A stretch of DNA of 24,000 bases from Chitinophaga pinensis (GCA_943372215.1 CALRXU020000010.1:26423-50422), one strand, 5' to 3'. Shown: positions 10,986-19,304, counted from the stretch's first letter. Numbers and translations are program-made. Notes: generated by a model not told the origin, from the letters alone.

Positions 10986-11168
10986 TTAATGGATATGAAC
11001 CAACAAGCCTAATCCTGTAAAAGCATACCCATCATTGTACCTGCCTTTTACCGCATCTAGGTTACTTGACGTGGCCAAATGGTAGTTGTGTTCCATGTGG
11101 ATGCCAATGGTTTTGTTGATTTTATAAGCCAACCCCAGTTTAGGGTAACATCGTTTATGGGTGAAATG
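10986..11168 (-). pseudogene. Truncated, frameshifted 3' fragment of a paralog of the 10198..10878 OMP gene
   Basis: The reverse strand ends ...GLLVHIH-TAA, against ...GLLVHIL-TAA in the intact copy. Homology runs for about 180 nt into the coding region with 5-nt and 2-nt gaps, then stops abruptly near 11170. The ORF track has no minus-strand ORF of 60 aa or more here. Confidence 0.65.
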
Positions 11169-11233
11169 TACTTACCCTTAATCATGCACAACAATATTGT
11201 GCGTTTTTACACCATTAGAAAGTGTGTTTTTAC

Positions 11234-11241
11234 TATATTTG
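11234..11241 (+). promoter_or_regulatory. Candidate Bacteroidota -7 promoter box (TATATTTG) for the XRE-hsdR operon
   Basis: Exact TAnnTTTG match 28 nt upstream of the ATG at 11269. It is the only obvious promoter-like element between the OMP relic and the first island gene. Confidence 0.4.
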
Positions 11242-11268
11242 ACCTGTTAAAAATTTATTAGACTTCAA

Positions 11269-11457
11269 ATGAATAGAATTAAAGAAGTTCTGAAAGAAAA
11301 AGGCATCTCACAAACTTGGCTGGCGAAACAGTTAGACAAAAGCTATAACACGATTAACGGGTATGCCCGAAATGTGAGACAACCAAGTATTGAGGATTTG
11401 TATCGCATTGCTAAAATTCTGGATGTTAACGCCAAAGATTTATTGAAAGAAGAATAA
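11269..11457 (+). CDS. XRE-family helix-turn-helix protein (62 aa), candidate controller of the R-M operon
   Basis: Canonical HTH_3 pattern: GISQTWLAKQLDKSYNTINGYARNVRQPSIEDLYRIAKILDV. Its stop overlaps the hsdR start (TAATG). Confidence 0.8.
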   Translation: MNRIKEVLKEKGISQTWLAKQLDKSYNTINGYARNVRQPSIEDLYRIAKILDVNAKDLLKEE

Positions 11458-14400
11458 TGAGTAAAGAGAACCAAATAGAAGAAAATCTTATAGAGCAACT
11501 AAAAGGGCTAAAATATCTTTATCGTCCCGATATAGTTGATAGGAAAACGCTTGAGCAAAACTTCAAAACAAAATTTGAAGCACTTAACCGTGTTCGTTTG
11601 TCAGACAATGAATTTTTGCGATTAAGAGAAGAAATTATTAAACCTGATGTATTTGCAGCATCTAAGTTTTTGCGCGAAAGACAATATTTTCAGCGTGAAG
11701 ATGGAACGCCATTACATTACACTTTAGTTAATACAAAAGAATGGTGCAAAAACGATTTTGAAATAATTAACCAACTTAGGGTTAATACCGAAAACAGCCA
11801 CCAACGATACGATATTATTTTGCTTTTAAATGGTTTGCCTTTGGTTCAAGTTGAACTGAAAAAAGTGGATGTTTCCCCAAGGAAAGCCATGCAGCAAATT
11901 GTTGAATATAAAAACGAACCTGGCAATGGTTATGGAAACTCTTTGCTTTGTTTTATGCAGCTTTTTATTGTAAGCAATGGAGGTAGAACGCTTTATTTTG
12001 CCAATAATAAAAACCAACACTTTGCTTTTAATGCCGATGAGCAATTTTTACCTGTATATGAACTGGCAGATAAGGACAACAAAAAAATTAGTGGCTTACA
12101 TGATTTTGCTGAAAAATTCTTAACCAAGTGTACACTTGGCGAAATGATTAGTAAATACATGGTTTTGGTAGAAAGCGAACAAAAACTGTTAGTGATGCGC
12201 CCTTACCAAATTTATGCCGTAAAAGCCATTGTAGATTGTATAAAAGACAATAGAGGTAACGGCTATATTTGGCACACTACAGGAAGTGGTAAAACACTTA
12301 CTTCGTTTAAAGCATCTACTTTATTAAAAGACAATCCTGATATTGAAAAATGTTTGTTTGTGGTGGATAGAAAAGACCTTGACCGACAAACACGCGAGGA
12401 GTTCAATAAATTTCAAGAGGGAAGTGTGGAAGAAAACACCAATACCGAAACATTGGTAAGGCGATTATTATCTACCGACTATGCCGATAAGGTAATAGTT
12501 TGTACCATTCAAAAATTAGCTTTAGCAATTGATAGTACTAATAGCCGTAACTATTTTGAGCGATTAGCACCTCTAAGAAATAAAAAAATAGTATTCATTT
12601 TTGATGAGTGCCACCGTTCTCAATTTGGACAAAACCATAAAGCAATTACTAAGTTTTTCCACAACGCTCAACTTTTTGGTTTTACTGGTACTCCAATATT
12701 TTCTGATAATGCTAATTACAGTTATATTGAAGGGCAAGAAGCTACTTTAAAAACCACTGTTGATATTTTTGAAAAGGAATTACATGCTTACACTATAACG
12801 CATGCCATTGAGGATAAAAATGTATTGCGTTTCCATATAGATTATTACAAAGGAAAAGGCACCCAAAATGTTAAAGCGGGTGAACCTATTGCCCAACAAG
12901 CAGTAGTGGAAGCCATTTTAGATAAACACAATGCAGCCACCAATCAAAGGCGATTTAATGCTACATTGGCAACTGCTTCAATAAACAATGCCATTGAATA
13001 TTATAGGCTTTTTAAAGAAATGCAAATTCTTCGTAAGGCTCAGGATGCTGAATATGTGCCTTTGAATATAGCCTGCGTATTTTCGCCACCAGCGCAACTT
13101 ATAGCCAAAGAAGGCGACCAAAAAAGCCAGAAAAATGCTGATGATATAAAACAACTGCAAGAGGATTTAATTCAGGAAAAAGAAGACAACAAACAAAATC
13201 CTGATGAAAAGAAAGAGGCTTTGATGCAAATTATTGCAGATTATAATTTGCAATATGGTACAAACCATACCATAAACGAGTTTGACTTGTATTACCAAGA
13301 TTTACAAATACGTATAAAAGACCAAAAATATAGCAATAAAGACTATCCACATAAAAACAAAATAGATATTACCATAGTGGTAGATATGTTGCTTACGGGT
13401 TTCGATTCTAAGTATTTGAATACTTTGTATGTAGATAAAAACCTAAAATACCATGGGTTAATTCAAGCATTTTCGCGCACTAACCGTGTGCTTAATGATA
13501 CCAAACCTTATGGCAATATTTTAGATTTCCGTTCGCAAAAAGAGGAAGTAAACAAAGCCATTGCCTTGTTTTCTGGCCAAGATAATAACAGTGCAAAAGA
13601 AATTTGGTTGGTTGACCCTGCTCCTGTAATGATTGAAAAATACCAAAAAGCAGTAGAAGCTTTGGGTGTATTTATGCAAGAACATAATTTGTTAAACGAA
13701 CCGCAAGAAGCTTATAACTTAAAAGGCGATGCCGCACGAATAGCATTTGTTAAAAACTTTAAGGAAATACAACGCTTAAAAACACAACTAGACCAATATA
13801 CAGACTTAAACGAAGGGCAGGTTGATTTAATTGAAGCCATTTTACCAAATGAAACTTTATTAGAATTTAGAAGCTCATACATAGAAACGGCTAAACAGCT
13901 AAGAACAATACAGCAAAAAGAGGGCGACCAAGCACCTACCGAAATTCAACAATTGGATTTTGAGTTTGTGCTGTTTGCTTCTGCGGTAATTGATTACGAC
14001 TACATTATGAACCTGATTGCTGACAGTACCCAACAAAAATCTGTTAAGCAAAAAATGACCAAGGCACAAGTAATTAGTTTACTAAGTGCCAATGCCAACT
14101 TAATGGATGAGCAGGAAAATTTAACTGAATATATTAATAGCTTAGACTGGAACAAAGGGCAAGATGTAAATGCTTTAACCAAAGGTTACGAAATTTTTAA
14201 AGTAGAAAAAAACGATAAGGAATTAACGGACATAGCCCACAAACATGGATTGCAAACAGCAGACTTGAAAGCCTTTGTAGAAGAAATAATGAGCCGAATG
14301 ATATTTGATGGTGAAAAATTAACTGACTTGTTAGAACCATTAGAATTAAGTTGGAAAGAACGCAGGGTAAAAGAATTGGCTTTAATGGTAGACTTAGTAC

Positions 14401-14459
14401 CACAATTAAAAAAACTGGCCGAAGGGCGGGAAATATCAGGATTAGCAGCTTATGAGTAA
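11457..14459 (+). CDS. hsdR: Type I restriction endonuclease, R subunit
   Basis: N-terminal PD-(D/E)xK-type region (YDIILLLNGLPLVQVELKK), SF2 helicase motif I (HTTGSGKT) and motif II (FIFDECHRSQ), motif VI-like QAFSRTNR, and a length of 1000 aa. Confidence 0.95.
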   Translation: MSKENQIEENLIEQLKGLKYLYRPDIVDRKTLEQNFKTKFEALNRVRLSDNEFLRLREEIIKPDVFAASKFLRERQYFQREDGTPLHYTLVNTKEWCKNDFEIINQLRVNTENSHQRYDIILLLNGLPLVQVELKKVDVSPRKAMQQIVEYKNEPGNGYGNSLLCFMQLFIVSNGGRTLYFANNKNQHFAFNADEQFLPVYELADKDNKKISGLHDFAEKFLTKCTLGEMISKYMVLVESEQKLLVMRPYQIYAVKAIVDCIKDNRGNGYIWHTTGSGKTLTSFKASTLLKDNPDIEKCLFVVDRKDLDRQTREEFNKFQEGSVEENTNTETLVRRLLSTDYADKVIVCTIQKLALAIDSTNSRNYFERLAPLRNKKIVFIFDECHRSQFGQNHKAITKFFHNAQLFGFTGTPIFSDNANYSYIEGQEATLKTTVDIFEKELHAYTITHAIEDKNVLRFHIDYYKGKGTQNVKAGEPIAQQAVVEAILDKHNAATNQRRFNATLATASINNAIEYYRLFKEMQILRKAQDAEYVPLNIACVFSPPAQLIAKEGDQKSQKNADDIKQLQEDLIQEKEDNKQNPDEKKEALMQIIADYNLQYGTNHTINEFDLYYQDLQIRIKDQKYSNKDYPHKNKIDITIVVDMLLTGFDSKYLNTLYVDKNLKYHGLIQAFSRTNRVLNDTKPYGNILDFRSQKEEVNKAIALFSGQDNNSAKEIWLVDPAPVMIEKYQKAVEALGVFMQEHNLLNEPQEAYNLKGDAARIAFVKNFKEIQRLKTQLDQYTDLNEGQVDLIEAILPNETLLEFRSSYIETAKQLRTIQQKEGDQAPTEIQQLDFEFVLFASAVIDYDYIMNLIADSTQQKSVKQKMTKAQVISLLSANANLMDEQENLTEYINSLDWNKGQDVNALTKGYEIFKVEKNDKELTDIAHKHGLQTADLKAFVEEIMSRMIFDGEKLTDLLEPLELSWKERRVKELALMVDLVPQLKKLAEGREISGLAAYE

Positions 14460-15702
14460 AAAGGATTTAATACCTGAATTGCGTTTTCCTGAGTTTAAGA
14501 ATAATGGGGAATGGGAACTTACATCAATTGGTGAAATCGGTAATTTTTACTACGGTAAAAGTGCCCCAAAATGGTCATTATCGGAAGAAGCCTCAACACC
14601 TTGTGTAAGATATGGCGATTTATACACTAAATTCGACACTATCATTTCTGAAATTAAATCTCGAACTAATATTGAGCCAAGCAATTTGAAGTTTAGTAAA
14701 GGGGGTGAAATATTAGTTCCTCGTGTTGGCGAACGTGCAACTGACTTTGCAAAAAACTGTTGTTACTTACCATTTTCAAATATTGCGATTGGTGAAATGA
14801 TAAGTGTTTTTGAAACAAAAGAATTCCCATTATTCTATACACATTACTTTAGAACACTTTGGAAAGAATTTGCTGAAGTTGTTGAAGGCCAAAATGTAAA
14901 AAATTTATACTTCGTAAACCTTGAGCCTATTAAAATAGGAAAAACATCCTATGCTGAACAACAAAAAATAGCCTCATGTCTTTCATCTTTAGATAAAGTA
15001 ATTGCTGCCGAAAGCCAAAAGTTAGATTTACTCAAAGAACACAAAAAAGGCTTGATGCAAAACCTTTTTCCTCAAGAGGGTGAAAAAGTGCCTAAGTATC
15101 GGTTTAAAGAGTTTGAGAAAGATGGGGAGTGGGTGGAGAAGAAGTTGGGGGAAGTGGGAGAATTTTTAGGTGGAGGAACTCCAAGCAGAACAAATAGTGA
15201 ATATTGGACAGGAAATATACCTTGGATTTCAAGTTCTGATATTAATGAAAACGATGTTCATAGCATTTCAATATCTCAATACATAAATGAAATTGCAATT
15301 ATTGAATCGGCAACTAAAATAATTCCCAAAGGAAGTGTTCTATTCGTTTCAAGAGTTGGGGTCGGCAAATTAGCAATCAATAATGAAGAGCTTTGTACAA
15401 GCCAAGATTTTACAAGTTTCATTCCTACAGAAGTTTTAAATTTATTTGTTGCTTATTATTATTTATCAAATAAAAATGCGTTACAATCTTTAAGTCAAGG
15501 TACATCAATTAAAGGCTTTTCAAAAAGCGATTTGGAAGACTCAAAAATAGGATTCCCAAGGAACCCCAAAGAACAGAAAAAAATCGCTAGCTGTCTTTCT
15601 TCCTTAGATGCACTTATTACTGCACAAGCGGAAAAAATAGAACAGTTGAAGTTGCATAAAAAGGGATTGATGCAGGGCTTGTTTCCAAAAATAAATGATT
15701 AA
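14452..15702 (+). CDS. hsdS: Type I restriction-modification specificity subunit (two TRDs)
   Basis: Start LRFPEF..EWE, then a second TRD start YRFKEFEKDGEWVEKKLGEV. The conserved coiled-coil region is duplicated (QQKIASCLSSLDKVIAAESQKLDLLKEHKKGLMQNLFP and EQKKIASCLSSLDALITAQAEKIEQLKLHKKGLMQGLFP). The gene overlaps hsdR by 8 nt (ATGAGTAA). Confidence 0.95.
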   Translation: MSKKDLIPELRFPEFKNNGEWELTSIGEIGNFYYGKSAPKWSLSEEASTPCVRYGDLYTKFDTIISEIKSRTNIEPSNLKFSKGGEILVPRVGERATDFAKNCCYLPFSNIAIGEMISVFETKEFPLFYTHYFRTLWKEFAEVVEGQNVKNLYFVNLEPIKIGKTSYAEQQKIASCLSSLDKVIAAESQKLDLLKEHKKGLMQNLFPQEGEKVPKYRFKEFEKDGEWVEKKLGEVGEFLGGGTPSRTNSEYWTGNIPWISSSDINENDVHSISISQYINEIAIIESATKIIPKGSVLFVSRVGVGKLAINNEELCTSQDFTSFIPTEVLNLFVAYYYLSNKNALQSLSQGTSIKGFSKSDLEDSKIGFPRNPKEQKKIASCLSSLDALITAQAEKIEQLKLHKKGLMQGLFPKIND

Positions 15703-15705
15703 AAT

Positions 15706-16800
15706 ATGAGTACAGTTATAGAAATAGCAGAGGATCTAAAAGGAACAAAAGAAAATATAATCCTTATTTATGCTTTTAATGCAACAGGCAAAACTCGTCT
15801 TTCAGTTGAATACAAAAACATTACTAAAAATCCTAATAATGGCGAACATGCGGGTGTTTACTACAATGCTTTTAGTGAAGATTTGTTTGTTTGGGATAAT
15901 GATAATCCAAATGGGGAAAAAAATATCAAACTCGACATTAAATTCAGTAGTTTAAATAGTTTACACAATTTAATGACGGAAGAAGATGTTGAAAAAAAGT
16001 TAATTCCTTACAAAAGGAAATATAACTTCTATTTTAACTCTAATAAAGACCTTGAGAAAGGTTATGATTCGATAGCATTTTATAAAATAGACGATAAAGA
16101 AAGTAAAACTCCTATTAAAATTTCGAGAGGTGAAGAAAGGATATTTGTTTGGTGTTTCTTTCTGGCTCTTTTAGAAGTTGAAGGTTGGGCAGACACACAA
16201 AATGCACACTTCTTTATTGATGACCCTGTTTCAAGTTTGGATGACCACAATATTTTTGTGACTGCTTACACCGTTTTTGACTTAATTGAACGTGAATTTG
16301 AAAAAAGAAAAATTATTATTACTTCGCATCACTTTGGTTTTCTAACCATTTTATCTGATATGCTTGGCAAAGGTGATAAAGCTGATAAATTTAGAAACAG
16401 AGATAAATCCAAAAAATATAAAGAATTTATATTAGAAGGCAATGGAGAAGATTTATCATTAGTTAAAACTAAAAATGGAGTATTTCTTTACCATTTGAGA
16501 TTGCTTCAAATCTTAAATCAAGCTGCCGAATCGAATAACGTTTACACTTATCACTTTGCACTTTTGAGGCAAGTGCTTGAAAATGTTGCATCATTTCTTG
16601 GTGTTGGTCAATTCAGTTATGTTTTGGAACAAATCGGAATCAATGACAAAGAAAGAGTTGCTTTCATTGTGAATGCACTTTCACATTTGAATGTTTATTA
16701 CCAACAAATCGACAAGCCTGTTCCAGATAATTTAGAATTGTTCAATGAGGTTTTAAGTAGGTTGATGAACAAATATCGTTTCTTAATACCTAAAGATTAA
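15706..16800 (+). CDS. prrC: PrrC-like anticodon nuclease (ABC/AAA_13-type ATPase N-domain plus C-terminal R-x3-E...H nuclease motif)
   Basis: P-loop AFNATGKT (aa 23-30), YYNAFSEDLFVWDND, signature-like ISRGEERIF, Walker B/D-loop HFFIDDPVSSLDD, and H-loop IITSHH. The C-terminal R288-x3-E292 (LLRQVLEN) and H327 (NALSHLN) sit at the same distance from the C-terminus as the Arg320/Glu324/His356 triad I recall for E. coli PrrC (396 aa). The gene is embedded in a type I R-M operon, 3 nt after hsdS. Confidence 0.65.
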   Translation: MSTVIEIAEDLKGTKENIILIYAFNATGKTRLSVEYKNITKNPNNGEHAGVYYNAFSEDLFVWDNDNPNGEKNIKLDIKFSSLNSLHNLMTEEDVEKKLIPYKRKYNFYFNSNKDLEKGYDSIAFYKIDDKESKTPIKISRGEERIFVWCFFLALLEVEGWADTQNAHFFIDDPVSSLDDHNIFVTAYTVFDLIEREFEKRKIIITSHHFGFLTILSDMLGKGDKADKFRNRDKSKKYKEFILEGNGEDLSLVKTKNGVFLYHLRLLQILNQAAESNNVYTYHFALLRQVLENVASFLGVGQFSYVLEQIGINDKERVAFIVNALSHLNVYYQQIDKPVPDNLELFNEVLSRLMNKYRFLIPKD

Positions 16801-16807
16801 AAACGAA

Positions 16808-16840
16808 ATGACAAATAAAGACCAACAACAATTAATTTAA
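16808..16840 (+). repeat. Relic copy of the hsdM 5' end (ATGACAAATAAAGACCAACAACAATTA..., mini-ORF MTNKDQQQLI*)
   Basis: Positions 16808..16834 match the real hsdM start at 17502..17528 (ATGACACAAAAAGACCAACAACAGTTA) at 24 of 27 positions in the same orientation. The two copies bracket the 211-aa gene. Confidence 0.7.
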
Positions 16841-16853
16841 TTGGTAAAATACA

Positions 16854-17489
16854 ATGGCGAGTAAAAGGGTAACAAAACATAAATTTATTAATGAATTAGT
16901 GGAATACGAACGAAACCCTCTAACGGGTAATTTTAATATTTTAGTTATTGGCACATTCAATCCGGCAATTGAAAGGAATAAAGCCAACTGGTTTTATGGG
17001 AGATCGGCAAGTGAGTTTTGGTATTTATTACCCAAAGCATTAAATTTTGATAGCCTTTATCCATCTGATATTGGAGTGAAAATAGAGGATGTTCATACAA
17101 AACAGAAAGCATTTTGCAAGGAGCAAAAAATTGTAATTGTTGATGTGTTTAAAAAAGTAAACATTAAATTGGATGGATATAGGGATAACGAATTACATAC
17201 ATTAGAAGAAAATCAATTTGAAGGATTTGATTATAAAAAAGCATTTGGTGAAGCCAACTTTAAGCTAGTTGCATTTACTTGGAAAACTAAAACTAAAAGC
17301 CATAGGCAAAATAAAATAAGAGAATCAATCATTGCCTTTTTTGCAGGTAAAGGAGTTCCTTGTTTATTGCTTGATTCGCCATCACCATCCCATCAAATTG
17401 GCAGGTACGATAAACTCACAAATTGGCAAGAATCCTTTGAGCCATATTTGGATAGGCTCAAGTTAGTAAAACCAAAATTAGACATATAA
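16854..17489 (+). CDS. Uracil-DNA-glycosylase-superfamily-like protein (MUG/family-6-like motifs); candidate DNA glycosylase
   Basis: Motif 1: ILVIGTFNPAIERNKANWFYGRSASEFWYLL (compare MUG VGINPG...F....NRFW..L and family-6 GSxPS...YY...N.FW). Mid region: IVIVDVFKKVNIKLDGYRDNEL (compare family-6 ..WDV......GSLDS.I). Motif 2: LLLDSPSPSHQ (compare LPNPSGLS and LPSTSPAN). The comparison sequences are recalled from memory, not searched. Confidence 0.5.
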   Translation: MASKRVTKHKFINELVEYERNPLTGNFNILVIGTFNPAIERNKANWFYGRSASEFWYLLPKALNFDSLYPSDIGVKIEDVHTKQKAFCKEQKIVIVDVFKKVNIKLDGYRDNELHTLEENQFEGFDYKKAFGEANFKLVAFTWKTKTKSHRQNKIRESIIAFFAGKGVPCLLLDSPSPSHQIGRYDKLTNWQESFEPYLDRLKLVKPKLDI

Positions 17490-17501
17490 TTACTGAAGGA
17501 T

Positions 17502-19160
17502 ATGACACAAAAAGACCAACAACAGTTAGGTAAAACCCTTTGGGATATAGCAGATAACTTACGTGGAGCAATGAACGCGGATGATTTCCGTGATTATATG
17601 CTTTCGTTTCTTTTTTTAAGGTATTTGTCTTACAACTACGAAGAGGCAGCAAAGAAAGAACTGGGAAAAGATTATCCTGAAACAACCGACAATCTCGTAA
17701 AAGATTTTGGTGTAACTACCCCACTTCAATTGTGGTATGAAAGTAATTTAGATGAAATAGCTGAATTTGAAAAACAAATGCGCAGAAAGGTGCATTATGT
17801 TATTGAACCAAGTCATTTGTGGAGCAATATCACTGAAATGGCTCGTACACAAGACTCAGAGTTATTGGTTACACTTGAATCGGGCTTTAGGTATATAGAG
17901 AATGAATCTTTTGCAAGTGCATTTCAAGGCTTGTTTTCTGAAATTAATTTGAATTCTGAAAAACTTGGGAAAACACCAGTAGAAAGAAACAAGAAACTTT
18001 GCACCATCATTCAGAAAATTGCGGAAGGTATTGCAGATTTTTCTGCTGATTCCGACACACTTGGCGATGCTTACGAATATTTAATTGGCGAATTTGCAGC
18101 AGGCTCAGGCAAAAAAGCAGGTGAATTTTATACGCCTCAACAAATATCTAAAATATTATCTAAAATAGTAATATTAGATAGTCAGGACCCGACAACTGGG
18201 CCAAAACTAAAGTTAGATAGAGTACTTGATTTTACATGTGGTTCAGGTTCATTATTGCTAAATATACGAACGCAATTAAAAAAAGCAACTAAAAGCAAAG
18301 GAACAATAGGCAAAATTTACGGACAAGAAAAAAACATTACCACCTATAACCTTGCCCGGATGAACATGCTTTTGCATGGCATGAAAGACACCGAGTTTGA
18401 AATTTTTCATGGAGATACTTTAGAGAATCAATGGCCTCTGCTTAATGAAATGAACCCAAGTAAAAAGATGGAGTTTGATGCCATTGTAGCCAATCCGCCA
18501 TTTAGTTTACGTTGGGAACCAACTGATGTACTGGCAGAAGATTTTCGTTTTAAAAGTTATGGTTTAGCACCTAAATCAGCCGCGGATTTTGCTTTTTTAT
18601 TACATGGTTTTCATTTTTTAGGGAAAGAAGGAACCATGGCCATTATTTTACCACATGGAGTTTTGTTCCGTGGTGGAGCAGAGGAACGTATTAGAACCAA
18701 ATTGCTAAAAGACAATCATATTGATACGGTCATTGGTTTACCTTCAAACTTATTTTACTCAACAGGTATTCCAGTCAGCATTTTAATTTTGAAAAAGTGC
18801 AAAAAACATGATGATGTTTTATTCATTAACGCAAGTGAACGCTATGAAAAAGGGAAACGCCAAAACACGTTAAGAGATGGAAAAGAAGCAGGAGAACGCA
18901 ACGATATTGATGATATTGTAAACACCTATAAAAACCGTCCAGATTACATTGAGCGTTACGCACGCAGGGTGTCAATGGACGAAATAGAAAAGAATGGTTA
19001 TAACTTAAACATTTCAAGGTATGTAAGCACCTCCATTGATGAAGTAAAAATTGATTTGAAAGAGGTGAATGAAAAATTGACTGAAATAAATAAAAGTATA
19101 AAAGTGAATACAGACAAACACAATAAATATCTAAAAGAGTTAGGATTGAATTTAATTTAA
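17502..19160 (+). CDS. hsdM: Type I restriction-modification N6-adenine DNA methyltransferase subunit
   Basis: HsdM N-terminal domain (LWDIADNLRGAMNADDFRDYMLSFLFLRYLS), AdoMet motif I (VLDFTCGSGSLLL), catalytic motif IV (IVANPPFS), and GEFYTP. Confidence 0.95.
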   Translation: MTQKDQQQLGKTLWDIADNLRGAMNADDFRDYMLSFLFLRYLSYNYEEAAKKELGKDYPETTDNLVKDFGVTTPLQLWYESNLDEIAEFEKQMRRKVHYVIEPSHLWSNITEMARTQDSELLVTLESGFRYIENESFASAFQGLFSEINLNSEKLGKTPVERNKKLCTIIQKIAEGIADFSADSDTLGDAYEYLIGEFAAGSGKKAGEFYTPQQISKILSKIVILDSQDPTTGPKLKLDRVLDFTCGSGSLLLNIRTQLKKATKSKGTIGKIYGQEKNITTYNLARMNMLLHGMKDTEFEIFHGDTLENQWPLLNEMNPSKKMEFDAIVANPPFSLRWEPTDVLAEDFRFKSYGLAPKSAADFAFLLHGFHFLGKEGTMAIILPHGVLFRGGAEERIRTKLLKDNHIDTVIGLPSNLFYSTGIPVSILILKKCKKHDDVLFINASERYEKGKRQNTLRDGKEAGERNDIDDIVNTYKNRPDYIERYARRVSMDEIEKNGYNLNISRYVSTSIDEVKIDLKEVNEKLTEINKSIKVNTDKHNKYLKELGLNLI

Positions 19161-19265: not shown

Positions 19266-19304
19266 CCAAAGCGGCTGTTTCAACAATTGAAACAGCCGCT
19301 TTGG
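19266..19304. terminator. Bidirectional intrinsic terminator between convergent hsdM and the large secreted-protein gene
   Basis: Perfect hairpin ccaaagcggctgtttcaa-caa-ttgaaacagccgctttgg (18-bp arms). An A-run lies upstream (aaaaa) and a T-rich tract downstream (tattggtttt). Confidence 0.8.

What the first reader, a model, noticed from the sequence alone, without database searches (positions are those of the whole stretch)
11269..19160. Composite defence operon: type I R-M, PrrC-like tRNA nuclease and a glycosylase-fold gene in a non-canonical R-S-prrC-X-M order
Six co-oriented genes are packed with a 1-nt overlap (TAATG), an 8-nt overlap (ATGAGTAA), and gaps of 3, 53 and 12 nt. The order is XRE HTH, HsdR, HsdS, PrrC-like ATPase/nuclease, UDG-superfamily-like protein, HsdM. 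The classical E. coli prr locus is hsdM-hsdS-prrC-hsdR. Here the methyltransferase is last and is separated from its specificity subunit by two non-R-M genes. If all parts are active, the operon layers three different mechanisms: cleavage of unmodified DNA, abortive tRNA cleavage when the R-M complex is inhibited, and possibly base excision. To my knowledge a prr-type locus with a glycosylase-fold partner has not been described, but I cannot check databases.
Basis: partly seen in the sequence, partly recalled or inferred. Interest (0 to 1): 0.8.

Follow-up and report, generated by a model that had tools for sequence, protein, structure and literature searches.

The report
Glycosylase-fold gene inside PrrC restriction operon
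A widespread Bacteroidota restriction-modification operon that already carries the tRNA-cutting "guardian" PrrC has gained an extra gene for an uncharacterised protein with a uracil-DNA-glycosylase fold; relatives of that protein turn up repeatedly inside restriction operons, which suggests an untested base-excision layer of phage defence.

Summary
Six co-oriented, tightly packed genes lie at 11269-19160: XRE-HTH, HsdR, HsdS, PrrC, a 211-aa protein ("X") and HsdM. PrrC is a genuine family member (PADLOC E=1e-103, with all NTPase and nuclease motifs). X has a UDG-superfamily fold (AF2 pLDDT 89; best Foldseek hits 2L3F, MUG, SMUG1). Its family profile matches 2L3F at E=7e-8. It falls below the family-6 model cutoff and shows no sequence similarity to Brig1.

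The order HTH-R-S-PrrC-M is not unusual. It is the standard layout of a large, highly conserved Bacteroidota PrrC lineage, and four of four relatives examined have it with prrC abutting hsdM. The window differs by a ~670-nt insertion carrying X. The insertion is flanked by a 33-nt direct repeat of the hsdM 5' end, and the left copy is a 10-codon hsdM relic.

X belongs to a rare, unnamed family with no Pfam hit. At least 12 independent loci place a family member inside other type I operons, usually as hsdM-hsdS-X-hsdR, or in defence islands. None of these loci has PrrC.

X is most likely an accessory antiviral DNA glycosylase that works like Brig1-3, but no activity has been tested. I rate it a new variant of a known kind, of moderate interest.

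The parts
11187..11268 (+). Conserved upstream leader of the operon module (probable promoter/operator for the HTH regulator)
   Evidence: Nucleotide homology to the sibling operons L166 and L165 starts at 11187 (86% and 83%) and to L168 at 11222; upstream of that there is none. Imperfect inverted repeats lie at 11179-11209 and 11237-11270. Promoter function is inferred; the sigma-70 scan was uninformative.
11269..11457 (+). 62-aa XRE/Cro-type HTH protein, probable controller of the operon
   Evidence: Pfam HTH_3 E=1e-12; PADLOC 'Control_protein' models E=2e-5. It shares 1 nt with hsdR. It is 98% identical to the L166 counterpart and sits in the same position in L165 and L166.
11457..14459 (+). 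HsdR, type I restriction subunit (EcoR124-type C-terminal domain, type IC-like)
   Evidence: TIGR00348 E=4e-114; Pfam HSDR_N, SWI2_SNF2, T1R_D3-like, EcoR124_C; PADLOC REase_I, 1072 bits.
14452..15702 (+). HsdS, specificity subunit with two target-recognition domains
   Evidence: Pfam Methylase_S with two stretches, E=1e-38; PADLOC Specificity_I E=7e-103. It is only ~40% identical to the siblings while R, M and PrrC are 79-89% identical, which means a different specificity.
15706..16800 (+). PrrC-family anticodon nuclease (ABC-type NTPase domain plus C-terminal RNase domain)
   Evidence: PADLOC PrrC E=1.4e-103 over residues 3-360. Motifs AFNATGKTR (23), KISRGE (138), FIDDPVSSLD (170), HFALLRQVLE (283) and NALSH (323) correspond to the EcoPrrC A-box, C-loop, B-box/D-loop and Arg320-Glu324/His356 elements described in PMC3025547.
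16802..16834 (+). Left copy of a 33-nt direct repeat: relic of the hsdM 5' end (relic ORF 16808-16840, MTNKDQQQLI*)
   Evidence: the repeat finder family D1: 16802-16834 versus 17496-17528, 85% identity, spacing 694. Nt 16808-16831 are 24/24 identical to the start of hsdM in L166. Homology to L166 runs from prrC to 16831 and then breaks.
16854..17489 (+). X: 211-aa UDG-superfamily-fold protein (GTFNP / WFYGR..EFW / SPSPS motifs), an inserted accessory gene
   Evidence: AF2 model pLDDT 89.3, pTM 0.88. Foldseek PDB hits: 2L3F E=5e-6, MUG 1e-3, SMUG1 3e-3. Family profile versus PDB: 2L3F E=6.8e-8. 26 of 40 family members hit TIGR04274, best E=4.6e-10. No Pfam, PADLOC or PHROG hit. Absent from the sibling PrrC operons.
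17496..17528 (+). Right copy of the 33-nt direct repeat: the functional hsdM start region
   Evidence: Homology to L166, L165 and L168 resumes exactly at the ATG at 17502.
17502..19160 (+). HsdM, type I N6-adenine DNA methyltransferase subunit
   Evidence: TIGR00497 E=6e-111; Pfam HsdM_N + N6_Mtase E=2e-99. It is 87% identical to L166 HsdM. Module homology ends at about 19163.
19266..19304 (.). Perfect 18-bp hairpin between the convergent hsdM and 1557-aa genes; probable bidirectional terminator that closes the operon
   Evidence: the repeat finder I1: 18-nt arms, 100% complementary, 3-nt loop. Listed as terminator-like with a T-run on the minus strand. Function inferred.

Best explanation
The locus is a horizontally mobile Bacteroidota defence module with a fixed layout. 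An HTH controller is followed by a type IC-like restriction-modification enzyme (HsdR, HsdS, HsdM), with the PrrC anticodon nuclease embedded between hsdS and hsdM. By analogy with E. coli, PrrC is held latent by the R-M complex and cuts tRNA when a phage inhibits restriction.

A ~670-nt cassette was inserted into codon ~9 of hsdM in this pre-existing module. It left a duplicated hsdM 5' end on both sides. [quoted passage not shown]

Most likely X is a monofunctional DNA glycosylase that excises a non-canonical base found in phage DNA, creating abasic sites that block replication. It would cover phages whose modified DNA escapes type I restriction. This is the role shown for Brig1/2/3 next to BREX and R-M, and for the type IV systems embedded in type I operons.

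Shown here: gene content, fold, homology, the insertion scar, and the recurrent embedding of the family in type I operons and defence islands. Inferred: catalytic activity, substrate, antiviral role, and that all layers are active.
For: Operon content and PrrC authenticity.

Standard layout without X: in L165 (Sphingobacterium humi), L166, L168 and a JGI contig, prrC is followed by hsdM after 5-7 nt.

Insertion scar: a 33-nt direct repeat; 24/24 nt identity of the relic to L166 hsdM; homology breaks at 16831 and resumes at 17502.

UDG fold and homology. Conserved polar residues across 40 members are H9, N36 (in G-T-F-N-P, next to Pro as in the MUG motif G-I-N-P), N42, Y48, R50, D97, D111 and P176. 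PMC5387724 describes that family-2 Asn as water-positioning.

Recurrent embedding of family members in type I operons: L001, L007, L010, L027, L037, L038, L089, L128, L130, L159, L176. These are nearly always hsdM-hsdS-X-(...)-hsdR, with HsdR C-terminal domain content differing among the loci checked (EcoEI_R_C in L001; neither that nor EcoR124_C in L176; EcoR124_C in the window). Type I genes are the second commonest neighbour set of the family. About half of the clade nearest to X is R-M-embedded.

Other neighbours are defence genes: GmrSD, AbiC, a Schlafen/AlbA_2 protein, UvrD- and RecD-like helicases, a reverse transcriptase, PD-(D/E)XK, NucS_C and PLD nucleases.

Precedents: Brig1 (PMC11078745), Brig2 (10.1101/2025.10.29.685425), Brig3 (10.64898/2026.02.25.707755), TgvAB in a type I operon (10.1101/2024.04.04.588119), DarTG2 between hsdS and hsdR at a proposed recombination hotspot (PMC12255303).
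Against: No biochemical or phage data exist for any member of this family.

X has no detectable sequence similarity to Brig1 (hhalign probability 0.06%). Brig2 and Brig3 could not be compared.

The closest characterised relative is a repair enzyme family (family 6 HDG).

Most family members surveyed (about 135 of 152 loci) are not next to type I genes within the DNA available. A large sister clade pairs instead with a PAD_porph-type gene. One close homologue (L004, 67% identical) stands alone beside ftsK.

The enrichment next to type I genes was not compared with a formal background.
Confidence: 0.5

Rival explanations
1. X is a repair glycosylase that accompanies the adenine methyltransferase, a 'Vsr-like' companion. 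Just as Vsr endonuclease is co-encoded with Dcm and m5C R-M systems to repair T:G mismatches from 5-methylcytosine deamination (established knowledge, recalled from memory), a relative of hypoxanthine-DNA glycosylase linked to hsdM/hsdS would remove hypoxanthine or another lesion that arises at or near N6-methyladenine sites. It would protect the host genome rather than attack phage.
For: The closest characterised family is hypoxanthine-DNA glycosylase (TIGR04274 sub-threshold hits in 26 of 40 members; 2L3F E=7e-8). The stereotyped position is directly after hsdM-hsdS in at least 10 loci. L131 also has a DNA methylase nearby.
Against: X is absent from 4 of 4 sibling operons that have 79-87% identical HsdM, so it is not needed by this methyltransferase. 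The family also occurs without a methyltransferase in view: L004 (stand-alone copy), the PLD-nuclease operon in L171, and the PAD_porph pairs. I know of no evidence that m6A deamination is a significant mutagenic burden (own knowledge). X carries an Asn before Pro in motif 1 that, according to PMC5387724, family 6 lacks, so its chemistry or substrate probably differs.
Confidence: 0.2
2. X is functionally coupled to the type I complex, as a second 'guardian' or an added effector arm. It occupies the same slot that PrrC occupies in the classical locus (between hsdS and hsdR). X would be kept inactive by, or recruited by, the R-M complex, and would deglycosylate DNA when restriction is inhibited. 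Alternatively it would act as a UDG-fold decoy or sensor for DNA-mimic anti-restriction proteines.
For: Family members sit exactly in the hsdS-hsdR slot, with start and stop codons overlapping or within 1-3 nt of hsdS and hsdR (L001, L010, L037, L130, L159). PrrC and DarTG2 use the same slot. UDG folds are classical targets of DNA-mimic inhibitors such as Ugi (own knowledge), and type I enzymes are inhibited by DNA mimics such as Ocr.
Against: There is no evidence of physical interaction. Other embedded systems (TgvAB) act independently of the type I enzyme. The family also occurs outside R-M operons. The conserved motif residues fit an ordinary active enzyme. In the window X sits beside PrrC rather than replacing it.
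Confidence: 0.12
3. X is a selectively neutral or decaying passenger that was carried in by an illegitimate recombination event and has no role in the operon.
For: The insertion left a scar and a relic ORF. The X-containing version is rare: only the window/L164, and probably the contig of P0001.
Against: The ORF is intact and is closely spaced with its neighbours (53 nt and 12 nt), with no terminator-like site between prrC and hsdM. Homologues at 91%, 67% and 30-44% identity keep the same motifs. Independent embedding of the family in many other type I operons argues for selection.
Confidence: 0.05

Closest known systems
E. coli prr locus (EcoprrI type IC R-M with embedded PrrC anticodon nuclease)
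   Same: A type I R-M system with an EcoR124-type HsdR and a PrrC gene embedded directly after hsdS. PrrC keeps the A-box, C-loop, B-box/D-loop and Arg-Glu-His nuclease motifs. The review PMC12707154 describes PrrC as a guardian activated when EcoprrI is inhibited.
   Different: The gene order here is HTH-hsdR-hsdS-prrC-(X)-hsdM, not hsdM-hsdS-prrC-hsdR (classical order from own knowledge). An XRE-HTH gene leads the operon, and there is an extra UDG-fold gene. The activating trigger and tRNA target in Bacteroidota are unknown.
Brig1, Brig2 and Brig3 antiviral DNA glycosylases (UDG superfamily)
   Same: Small single-domain UDG-superfamily proteins encoded in defence islands or inside multi-gene defence loci. 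They are proposed to complement systems that modified phage DNA evades.
   Different: X has no detectable sequence similarity to Brig1. Brig1 is 261 aa and structurally nearest to family 4, while X is nearest to family 6, MUG and SMUG1. Brig2 homologues are mainly Pseudomonadota, while the X family is mainly Bacteroidota and Campylobacterota. No activity is known for X.
Family 6 UDG / hypoxanthine-DNA glycosylase (TIGR04274; PDB 2L3F)
   Same: Best sequence and structure match. Shared elements are G-[ST]-x-P, (F/Y)YG..N.FW and a conserved Asp (D97, aligned with the 'WD' of 2L3F).
   Different: X scores 17.9 bits against a cutoff of 80. It has an inserted Asn (G-T-F-N-P versus G-S-L-P) that resembles the family-2 catalytic Asn, an R in place of the N in 'YGN', and an N-terminal extension with an invariant His. 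Its genomic context is defence rather than housekeeping.
Type I R-M-embedded accessory defence systems (TgvAB in V. cholerae VPI-2; DarTG2 in the EPEC RRDM island)
   Same: Unrelated defence genes inserted within a type I operon, typically between hsdS and hsdR. The site has been described as a probable recombination hotspot, and the combination as layered defence against modified and unmodified DNA.
   Different: The cargo here is a UDG-fold protein. The operon already carries one embedded system (PrrC), so it has two different embedded genes. The insertion point is the 5' end of hsdM.

Membership tests
PrrC anticodon nuclease | Full-length match to a PrrC profile | tested here: met
   PADLOC PDLC02360 E=1.4e-103, residues 3-360 against profile positions 20-347 of 372. 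Close homologues are named 'anticodon nuclease' by NCBI.
PrrC anticodon nuclease | N-terminal ABC-type NTPase motifs (A-box AxxGxGKT-R, C-loop LSKGE, B-box/D-loop FIDDPVSSLD, H-loop) | tested here: met
   AFNATGKTR at 23, KISRGE at 138, FIDDPVSSLD at 170, SHH at 207. Reference motifs are from PMC3025547. Small deviations: A for the first G in the A-box, R for K in the C-loop.
PrrC anticodon nuclease | C-terminal nuclease Arg-Glu-His triad (EcoPrrC R320, E324, H356, plus H315) | tested here: met
   H-x4-R-x3-E (HFALLRQVLE, 283-292) and NALSH (323-327). These are present in 115/115 and 112/115 close homologues respectively. Assignment is by motif spacing, not by a structure.
PrrC anticodon nuclease | Genetic linkage to a type I (type IC) R-M system | tested here: met
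   The gene lies 3 nt after hsdS in an operon whose HsdR has the EcoR124_C domain.
PrrC anticodon nuclease | tRNA(Lys) anticodon cleavage, latent until R-M is inhibited | not testable with these tools
   Needs biochemistry and phage assays.
Type I restriction-modification system | HsdR, HsdM and HsdS with their characteristic domains in one operon | tested here: met
   TIGR00348 (382 bits, cutoff 285); TIGR00497 (372 bits, cutoff 243); Methylase_S x2.
UDG superfamily | UDG-type alpha/beta fold | tested here: met
UDG superfamily | Motif 1 (G-x-x-P region with the water-positioning residue) and motif 2 (xPSPxx) | tested here: inconclusive
   G33-T-F-N36-P and S175-P-S-P-S are conserved in the family. 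Their equivalence to the catalytic motifs is inferred from alignment to 2L3F for motif 1 only. Motif 2 lay outside the aligned region.
UDG superfamily | Match to the Pfam UDG domain model | tested here: not met
   No Pfam family at E<=0.1 apart from a spurious DUF2852 hit. No homologue has a precomputed Pfam domain.
Family 6 UDG (hypoxanthine-DNA glycosylase, TIGR04274) | Score above the curated cutoff of the equivalog model | tested here: not met
   17.9 bits against a cutoff of 80. 26 of 40 family members hit the model at E<0.01, best E=4.6e-10. X is therefore a related but separate family.
Family 6 UDG (hypoxanthine-DNA glycosylase, TIGR04274) | Hypoxanthine excision without uracil activity | not testable with these tools
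   Needs enzyme assays.
Brig1 antiviral glycosylase family | Sequence homology to Brig1 | tested here: not met
   hhalign of family profile A2 against Brig1: probability 0.06%. BLASTP E=0.22 over 11 residues. The Brig1 sequence was taken from the machine-read supplement of PMC11078745.
Brig2 / Brig3 antiviral glycosylase families | Sequence homology to Brig2 or Brig3 | not tested
   Sequences could not be retrieved: the tables were truncated and no supplements are held. No Brig-named entry appeared among the top 50 Foldseek PDB hits listed.

The most novel reading that the evidence does not exclude
The X family is not just another stand-alone antiviral glycosylase. It would be a dedicated partner of type I restriction enzymes: a base-excision effector that is recruited or held in check by the HsdM/HsdS/HsdR complex. 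It occupies the same hsdS-proximal slot as PrrC. That would make the window a type I system guarded by two mechanistically different fail-safes, one attacking tRNA and one attacking DNA.
Probability: 0.12. Interest if true: 0.8.

Novelty: new variant of a known kind. Interest (0 to 1): 0.55.

Why it matters
If X is active, it defines a new, sequence-distinct branch of the UDG superfamily recruited to immunity, related to family 6. It would be the first such branch tied specifically to type I R-M operons, extending the Brig1/2/3 story to Bacteroidota. The insertion scar gives a rare base-pair-level view of how an accessory gene enters a defence operon. The window also provides a natural experiment: nearly identical HTH-R-S-PrrC-M modules exist with and without X. 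That makes it straightforward to ask what X adds and whether it depends on the R-M complex or on PrrC. The family's relation to a purine-specific (hypoxanthine) glycosylase, together with the PAD_porph partner in its sister clade, hints at substrates other than the modified pyrimidines targeted by the known Brig enzymes.

Tried and rejected
I replaced it with a hand-made degenerate DNA pattern for [WF][FY]YGR-x4-[FL]W-x-[LFVI][LFM]P.

The exact-sequence look-up of X found nothing, although the identical locus L164 lists the gene.

There are no relatives of X in phage genomes, plasmids, IMG/VR contigs or BFVD structures, so I rejected a phage or plasmid origin.

The sigma-70 promoter scan found no more sites than shuffled sequence (29 versus 33.8), and Bacteroidota promoters are not covered by it.

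There are no Rfam families or tRNAs in the window.

The Brig2 sequence was not recoverable from the truncated supplement, and no Brig3 supplement is held.

Eight of ten unannotated neighbours of X homologues had no PADLOC hit; the other two had only weak DrmC/DpdK-like hits.

I considered and rejected three ideas. That the 364-aa protein is a generic ABC ATPase: the nuclease motifs are present. That the R-S-prrC-M order is exceptional: it is the lineage norm. That X is a Brig1 orthologue: there is no similarity.

The NJ tree has no support values and is used only descriptively.

Full report
OBSERVATION. The junctions are as described. HTH and hsdR share one base (AATAATGAG). hsdR and hsdS overlap by 8 nt (ATGAGTAA). 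The remaining spacers are 3, 53 and 12 nt. The minus-strand ORFs inside the region are all shorter than 76 aa and lie within the long + strand genes. No Rfam family or tRNA is present. The operon is A+T-richer (G+C 0.337; prrC 0.304; X 0.322) than its flanks (0.39-0.40). A public assembly contig (L164, Logan ERR9580588) is identical over 12,964 nt.

WHAT THE GENES ARE. Profile searches identify five of the six genes:
- a 62-aa XRE/Cro HTH that also weakly matches R-M 'control protein' models;
- HsdR with HSDR_N, SWI2/SNF2, T1R_D3-like and EcoR124_C domains (TIGR00348, 382 bits against a cutoff of 285);
- HsdS with two Methylase_S halves;
- HsdM (TIGR00497, 372 bits against 243);
- for the 364-aa protein, a full-length match to the PADLOC PrrC model (E=1.4e-103).

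The EcoPrrC elements shown by mutagenesis to be essential (PMC3025547) are present in the window protein: A-box AFNATGKTR, C-loop KISRGE, B-box/D-loop FIDDPVSSLD, an H-loop, and the nuclease H-x4-R-x3-E (HFALLRQVLE) and NALSH. The nuclease motifs are conserved in 112-115 of 115 close homologues. The 364-aa protein is therefore a real PrrC, not a generic ABC ATPase.

THE 211-aa PROTEIN (X). Pfam, PADLOC and PHROGs give nothing. NCBIfam gives only a sub-threshold hit to the family-6 UDG model TIGR04274 (17.9 bits, cutoff 80). phmmer against PDB sequences gives 2L3F at E=0.045. The word-indexed search found five homologues. An exhaustive HMMER search of 1.84 billion cluster representatives with their alignment found 199 proteins at E<=1e-3, of which 14 reach E<=1e-30, so this is a rare family.

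An AlphaFold2 model built on only six sequences was nevertheless confident (pLDDT 89.3, pTM 0.88). Its five best Foldseek matches in the PDB are all UDG-superfamily structures: 2L3F (E=5e-6), MUG (1e-3) and SMUG1 (3e-3). A 40-member family profile matches 2L3F at E=6.8e-8, and 26 of the 40 members hit TIGR04274 at E<0.01, the best at 4.6e-10.

The family conserves G-T-F-N-P, N-x-A-x-W-F-Y-G-R-x4-F-W-x-L-L-P, an Asp (D97) that aligns with the 'WD' of 2L3F, D111, and an S/T-P-S motif near the C-terminus. Compared with 2L3F (G-S-L-P-S), the family has an extra Asn directly before the Pro, as in the MUG motif G-I-N-P. PMC5387724 states that this Asn positions the catalytic water in family 2 and is missing in families 4-6. 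I take this as a hint of catalytic competence, not as proof.

X is thus a UDG-superfamily protein related to family 6 but not a member of it. It shows no similarity to Brig1 (hhalign probability 0.06%, BLASTP E=0.22). Public sources call family members 'hypothetical protein' or, in JGI's automated annotation, 'G:T/U-mismatch repair DNA glycosylase'. None has a precomputed Pfam domain.

THE GENE ORDER IS THE LINEAGE NORM, AND X IS AN INSERTION. PrrC has more than 6,000 homologues at E<=1e-10 in the protein collection. Those at 85-90% identity come from different Bacteroidota genera, including Sphingobacterium, Mariniflexile and Flavobacterium. I examined four close relatives:
- L165 (S. humi): HTH-hsdR-[YhcG/DUF1016]-hsdS-prrC-hsdM;
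- L166: mcrBC, then HTH-hsdR-hsdS-prrC-hsdM;
- L168: gmrSD and abiC, then hsdR-hsdS-prrC-hsdM;
- a JGI contig: hsdR-hsdS-prrC followed by the next gene.

In all four, prrC is followed after 5-7 nt by hsdM, or in the JGI contig by an unannotated downstream gene fragment, and there is no X. R, PrrC and M are 79-89% identical to the window's, while HsdS is only ~40% identical, as expected for swapped specificities. Nucleotide homology of the module starts at window 11187 and ends at about 19163.

At the prrC-hsdM junction, homology to L166 runs through prrC and the first 24 nt of L166 hsdM (window 16600-16831) and then breaks. It resumes exactly at the window's hsdM ATG (17502). Bases 16808-16831 are 24/24 identical to the L166 hsdM start, but here they form a 10-codon relic (MTNKDQQQLI*). 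The repeat finder reports the corresponding 33-nt direct repeat (16802-16834 and 17496-17528, 85% identity, 694 nt apart).

So a cassette of about 670 nt carrying X was inserted into codon ~9 of hsdM in a pre-existing module, and the hsdM 5' end was duplicated or supplied anew. The nearest stand-alone homologue (L004, 67% aa identity) shares nucleotide similarity only within the ORF, so the donor context is unknown. P0001 (91% identical to X) lies on a 1.6-kb contig with the same spacing pattern: a 57-nt gap upstream and a 12-nt gap to a downstream gene. It is probably the same arrangement, but no DNA was available to check.

WHERE THE FAMILY LIVES. Automatic back-translation failed. I therefore scanned one genome per GTDB species with a degenerate pattern for the WFYGR..FW..LLP motif, and scanned JGI metagenome contigs with the tight alignment. 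Of 163 loci then held, 152 encode a family member. They are mostly Bacteroidota, with a Campylobacterota (Sulfurimonas) group.

Using iterated profiles seeded with the window's own HsdR/S/M and PrrC, 17 loci have type I genes nearby and none has PrrC. After removing duplicates and weak cases, and adding two later look-ups, at least 12 independent loci embed the gene in a type I operon: the window, L001, L007, L010, L027, L037, L038, L089, L128, L130, L159 and L176. The arrangement is almost always hsdM-hsdS-X-(other genes)-hsdR, with X starting within a few bases of the hsdS stop or overlapping it. The HsdR C-terminal domains differ among the loci checked: EcoEI_R_C in L001, neither that nor EcoR124_C in L176, and EcoR124_C in the window. 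This suggests repeated capture by different type I families.

Among all immediate neighbours, HsdS (position -1) and HsdM (position -2) form the second largest neighbour clusters. In a rough NJ tree, about half of the clade nearest to X is R-M-embedded.

Other neighbours of this clade and of the R-M-embedded copies are defence-type genes:
- GmrSD (L007);
- AbiC, a UvrD-like helicase, a DNA methylase and an endonuclease (L131);
- a Schlafen/AlbA_2 protein (L159);
- a RecD-like helicase (L027);
- a reverse transcriptase and a dNK-like kinase (L128);
- PD-(D/E)XK (L130);
- NucS_C/DUF8426 nucleases (L001, L176);
- a PLD/DrmC-like nuclease with a WD40 protein (L171-175).

I did not compute a formal background. 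With one or two type I operons among several thousand genes per genome, the chance that a random gene sits directly after hsdS is of order 0.1%. The observed rate is roughly 6%. This is my own inference, not a computed statistic.

Against a purely defence-linked picture, most loci show no type I genes in the DNA available, and one close homologue stands alone next to ftsK. A large ~180-aa sister clade is instead followed, in 28 loci, by a PAD_porph-family gene. No relatives were found in phage genomes, plasmids, IMG/VR contigs or BFVD.

HOW IT MOST LIKELY WORKS. Shown: an HTH-led, type IC-like R-M operon with an authentic PrrC and an inserted UDG-fold gene, closed by a perfect 18-bp hairpin at 19266-19304.

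Inferred from established knowledge (PMC12707154): the R-M enzyme cleaves unmethylated DNA, and PrrC is a latent tRNA nuclease released when a phage inhibits the R-M complex.

Inferred for X (about 50% confidence): it is a monofunctional glycosylase that removes a non-canonical base present in phage DNA and so covers phages whose modifications blind type I restriction. This is the logic demonstrated for Brig1 next to BREX and restriction systems (PMC11078745). It also holds for Brig2, Brig3, and the type IV-like TgvAB embedded in a V. cholerae type I operon. The hsdS-hsdR interval has been called a likely recombination hotspot for defence cargo (PMC12255303).

The rivals are:
- a Vsr-like repair companion of the adenine methyltransferase (about 20%);
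- a glycosylase-fold protein functionally coupled to the R-M complex, as a second guardian or a DNA-mimic sensor (about 12%);
- a neutral passenger (about 5%).

COMPARISON AND NOVELTY. The PrrC/type I part is a member of a known system in a lineage-typical, already abundant arrangement, so it is not novel in itself. Three things are new as far as my searches reach. First, an unnamed UDG-superfamily family with no Pfam hit, related to family 6. Second, its recurrent embedding in type I operons. Third, its co-occurrence with PrrC in one operon, with a legible insertion scar. Antiviral UDG-fold glycosylases and type I-embedded accessory systems are both established concepts, so I rate this a new variant of a known kind rather than categorically new. 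It is interesting mainly as a well-posed, testable candidate, because natural operon versions with and without X exist. Overall interest is 0.55.

Noticed in passing
L143 816-1652(+), L025 6008-6829(+), L108 2177-3346(-), and about 25 further loci among L006-L163: In the ~180-aa sister clade of the family, the gene immediately downstream on the same strand is a PAD_porph-family protein (agmatine or peptidyl-arginine deiminase fold, Pfam E~1e-28, catalytic Cys motif retained). This holds for 28 loci and looks like a conserved two-gene unit of unknown function. A UDG-like protein paired with a guanidino- or amidino-group hydrolase might act on amidine-bearing modified bases, but that is speculation.
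   Followed up: partly
L165 5703-6740; L166 1-3090; L168 221-3103: Sibling HTH-R-S-PrrC-M modules carry or adjoin other defence cargo: a YhcG/DUF1016 nuclease-like gene inserted between hsdR and hsdS (L165), McrBC immediately upstream (L166), and GmrSD plus AbiC upstream (L168). The module therefore accepts insertions at several different junctions and sits in different defence islands.
   Followed up: partly
L001 6350-7255; L176 7673-8599 (also L177, L178): A DUF8426/NucS_C-domain nuclease gene co-occurs with the glycosylase-like gene in two independent type I operons. In L176 it lies directly after X; in L001 it lies three genes after hsdR. It may be a partner nuclease, for example for abasic-site or mismatch cleavage.
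   Followed up: no
L171-L175, e.g. L171 3777-7627: A family member (P0302, seen on 24 contigs) ends a four-gene same-strand cluster: an unknown 243-aa protein, a WD40 beta-propeller, a PLDc_2 nuclease (weak DrmC-like PADLOC hit) and X. The cluster is flanked by umuDC-like genes and a Ser/Thr kinase/phosphatase pair. It may be a distinct candidate defence operon.
   Followed up: no
L128 2311-12634: About 10 kb of cargo is embedded between hsdM/hsdS and hsdR. It includes the glycosylase-like gene, a sigma-54-activator-type AAA+ protein on the opposite strand, a dNK/thymidylate-kinase-like protein and a reverse transcriptase. This is an unusually large island inside a type I operon.
   Followed up: no
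window 15706-16800 and homologues P0156-P0275: PrrC is 85-90% identical between different Bacteroidota genera (Sphingobacterium, Mariniflexile, Flavobacterium), while the adjacent HsdS is only ~40% identical. This points to recent horizontal spread of the module with replacement of the specificity domains.
   Followed up: partly
window 19266-19304: A perfect 18-bp inverted repeat with a 3-nt loop lies between the convergent hsdM gene and the 1557-aa FG-GAP/ASPIC gene that has a Por secretion tail. It is probably a bidirectional terminator.
   Followed up: partly
window 16854-17489 versus L164 5818-6453: The exact-sequence look-up reported that no gene with the X product is on record, yet the identical contig L164 lists a 211-aa gene at the matching position. 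The index is incomplete for this protein, so 'not on record' results should be read with care.
   Followed up: no
window 11079-11261: A 60-aa ATG ORF lies just upstream of the HTH gene. It partly overlaps the conserved leader (11187-11268) that is shared with sibling operons. It was not tested for conservation as a protein, and it may be only promoter/operator DNA.
   Followed up: no
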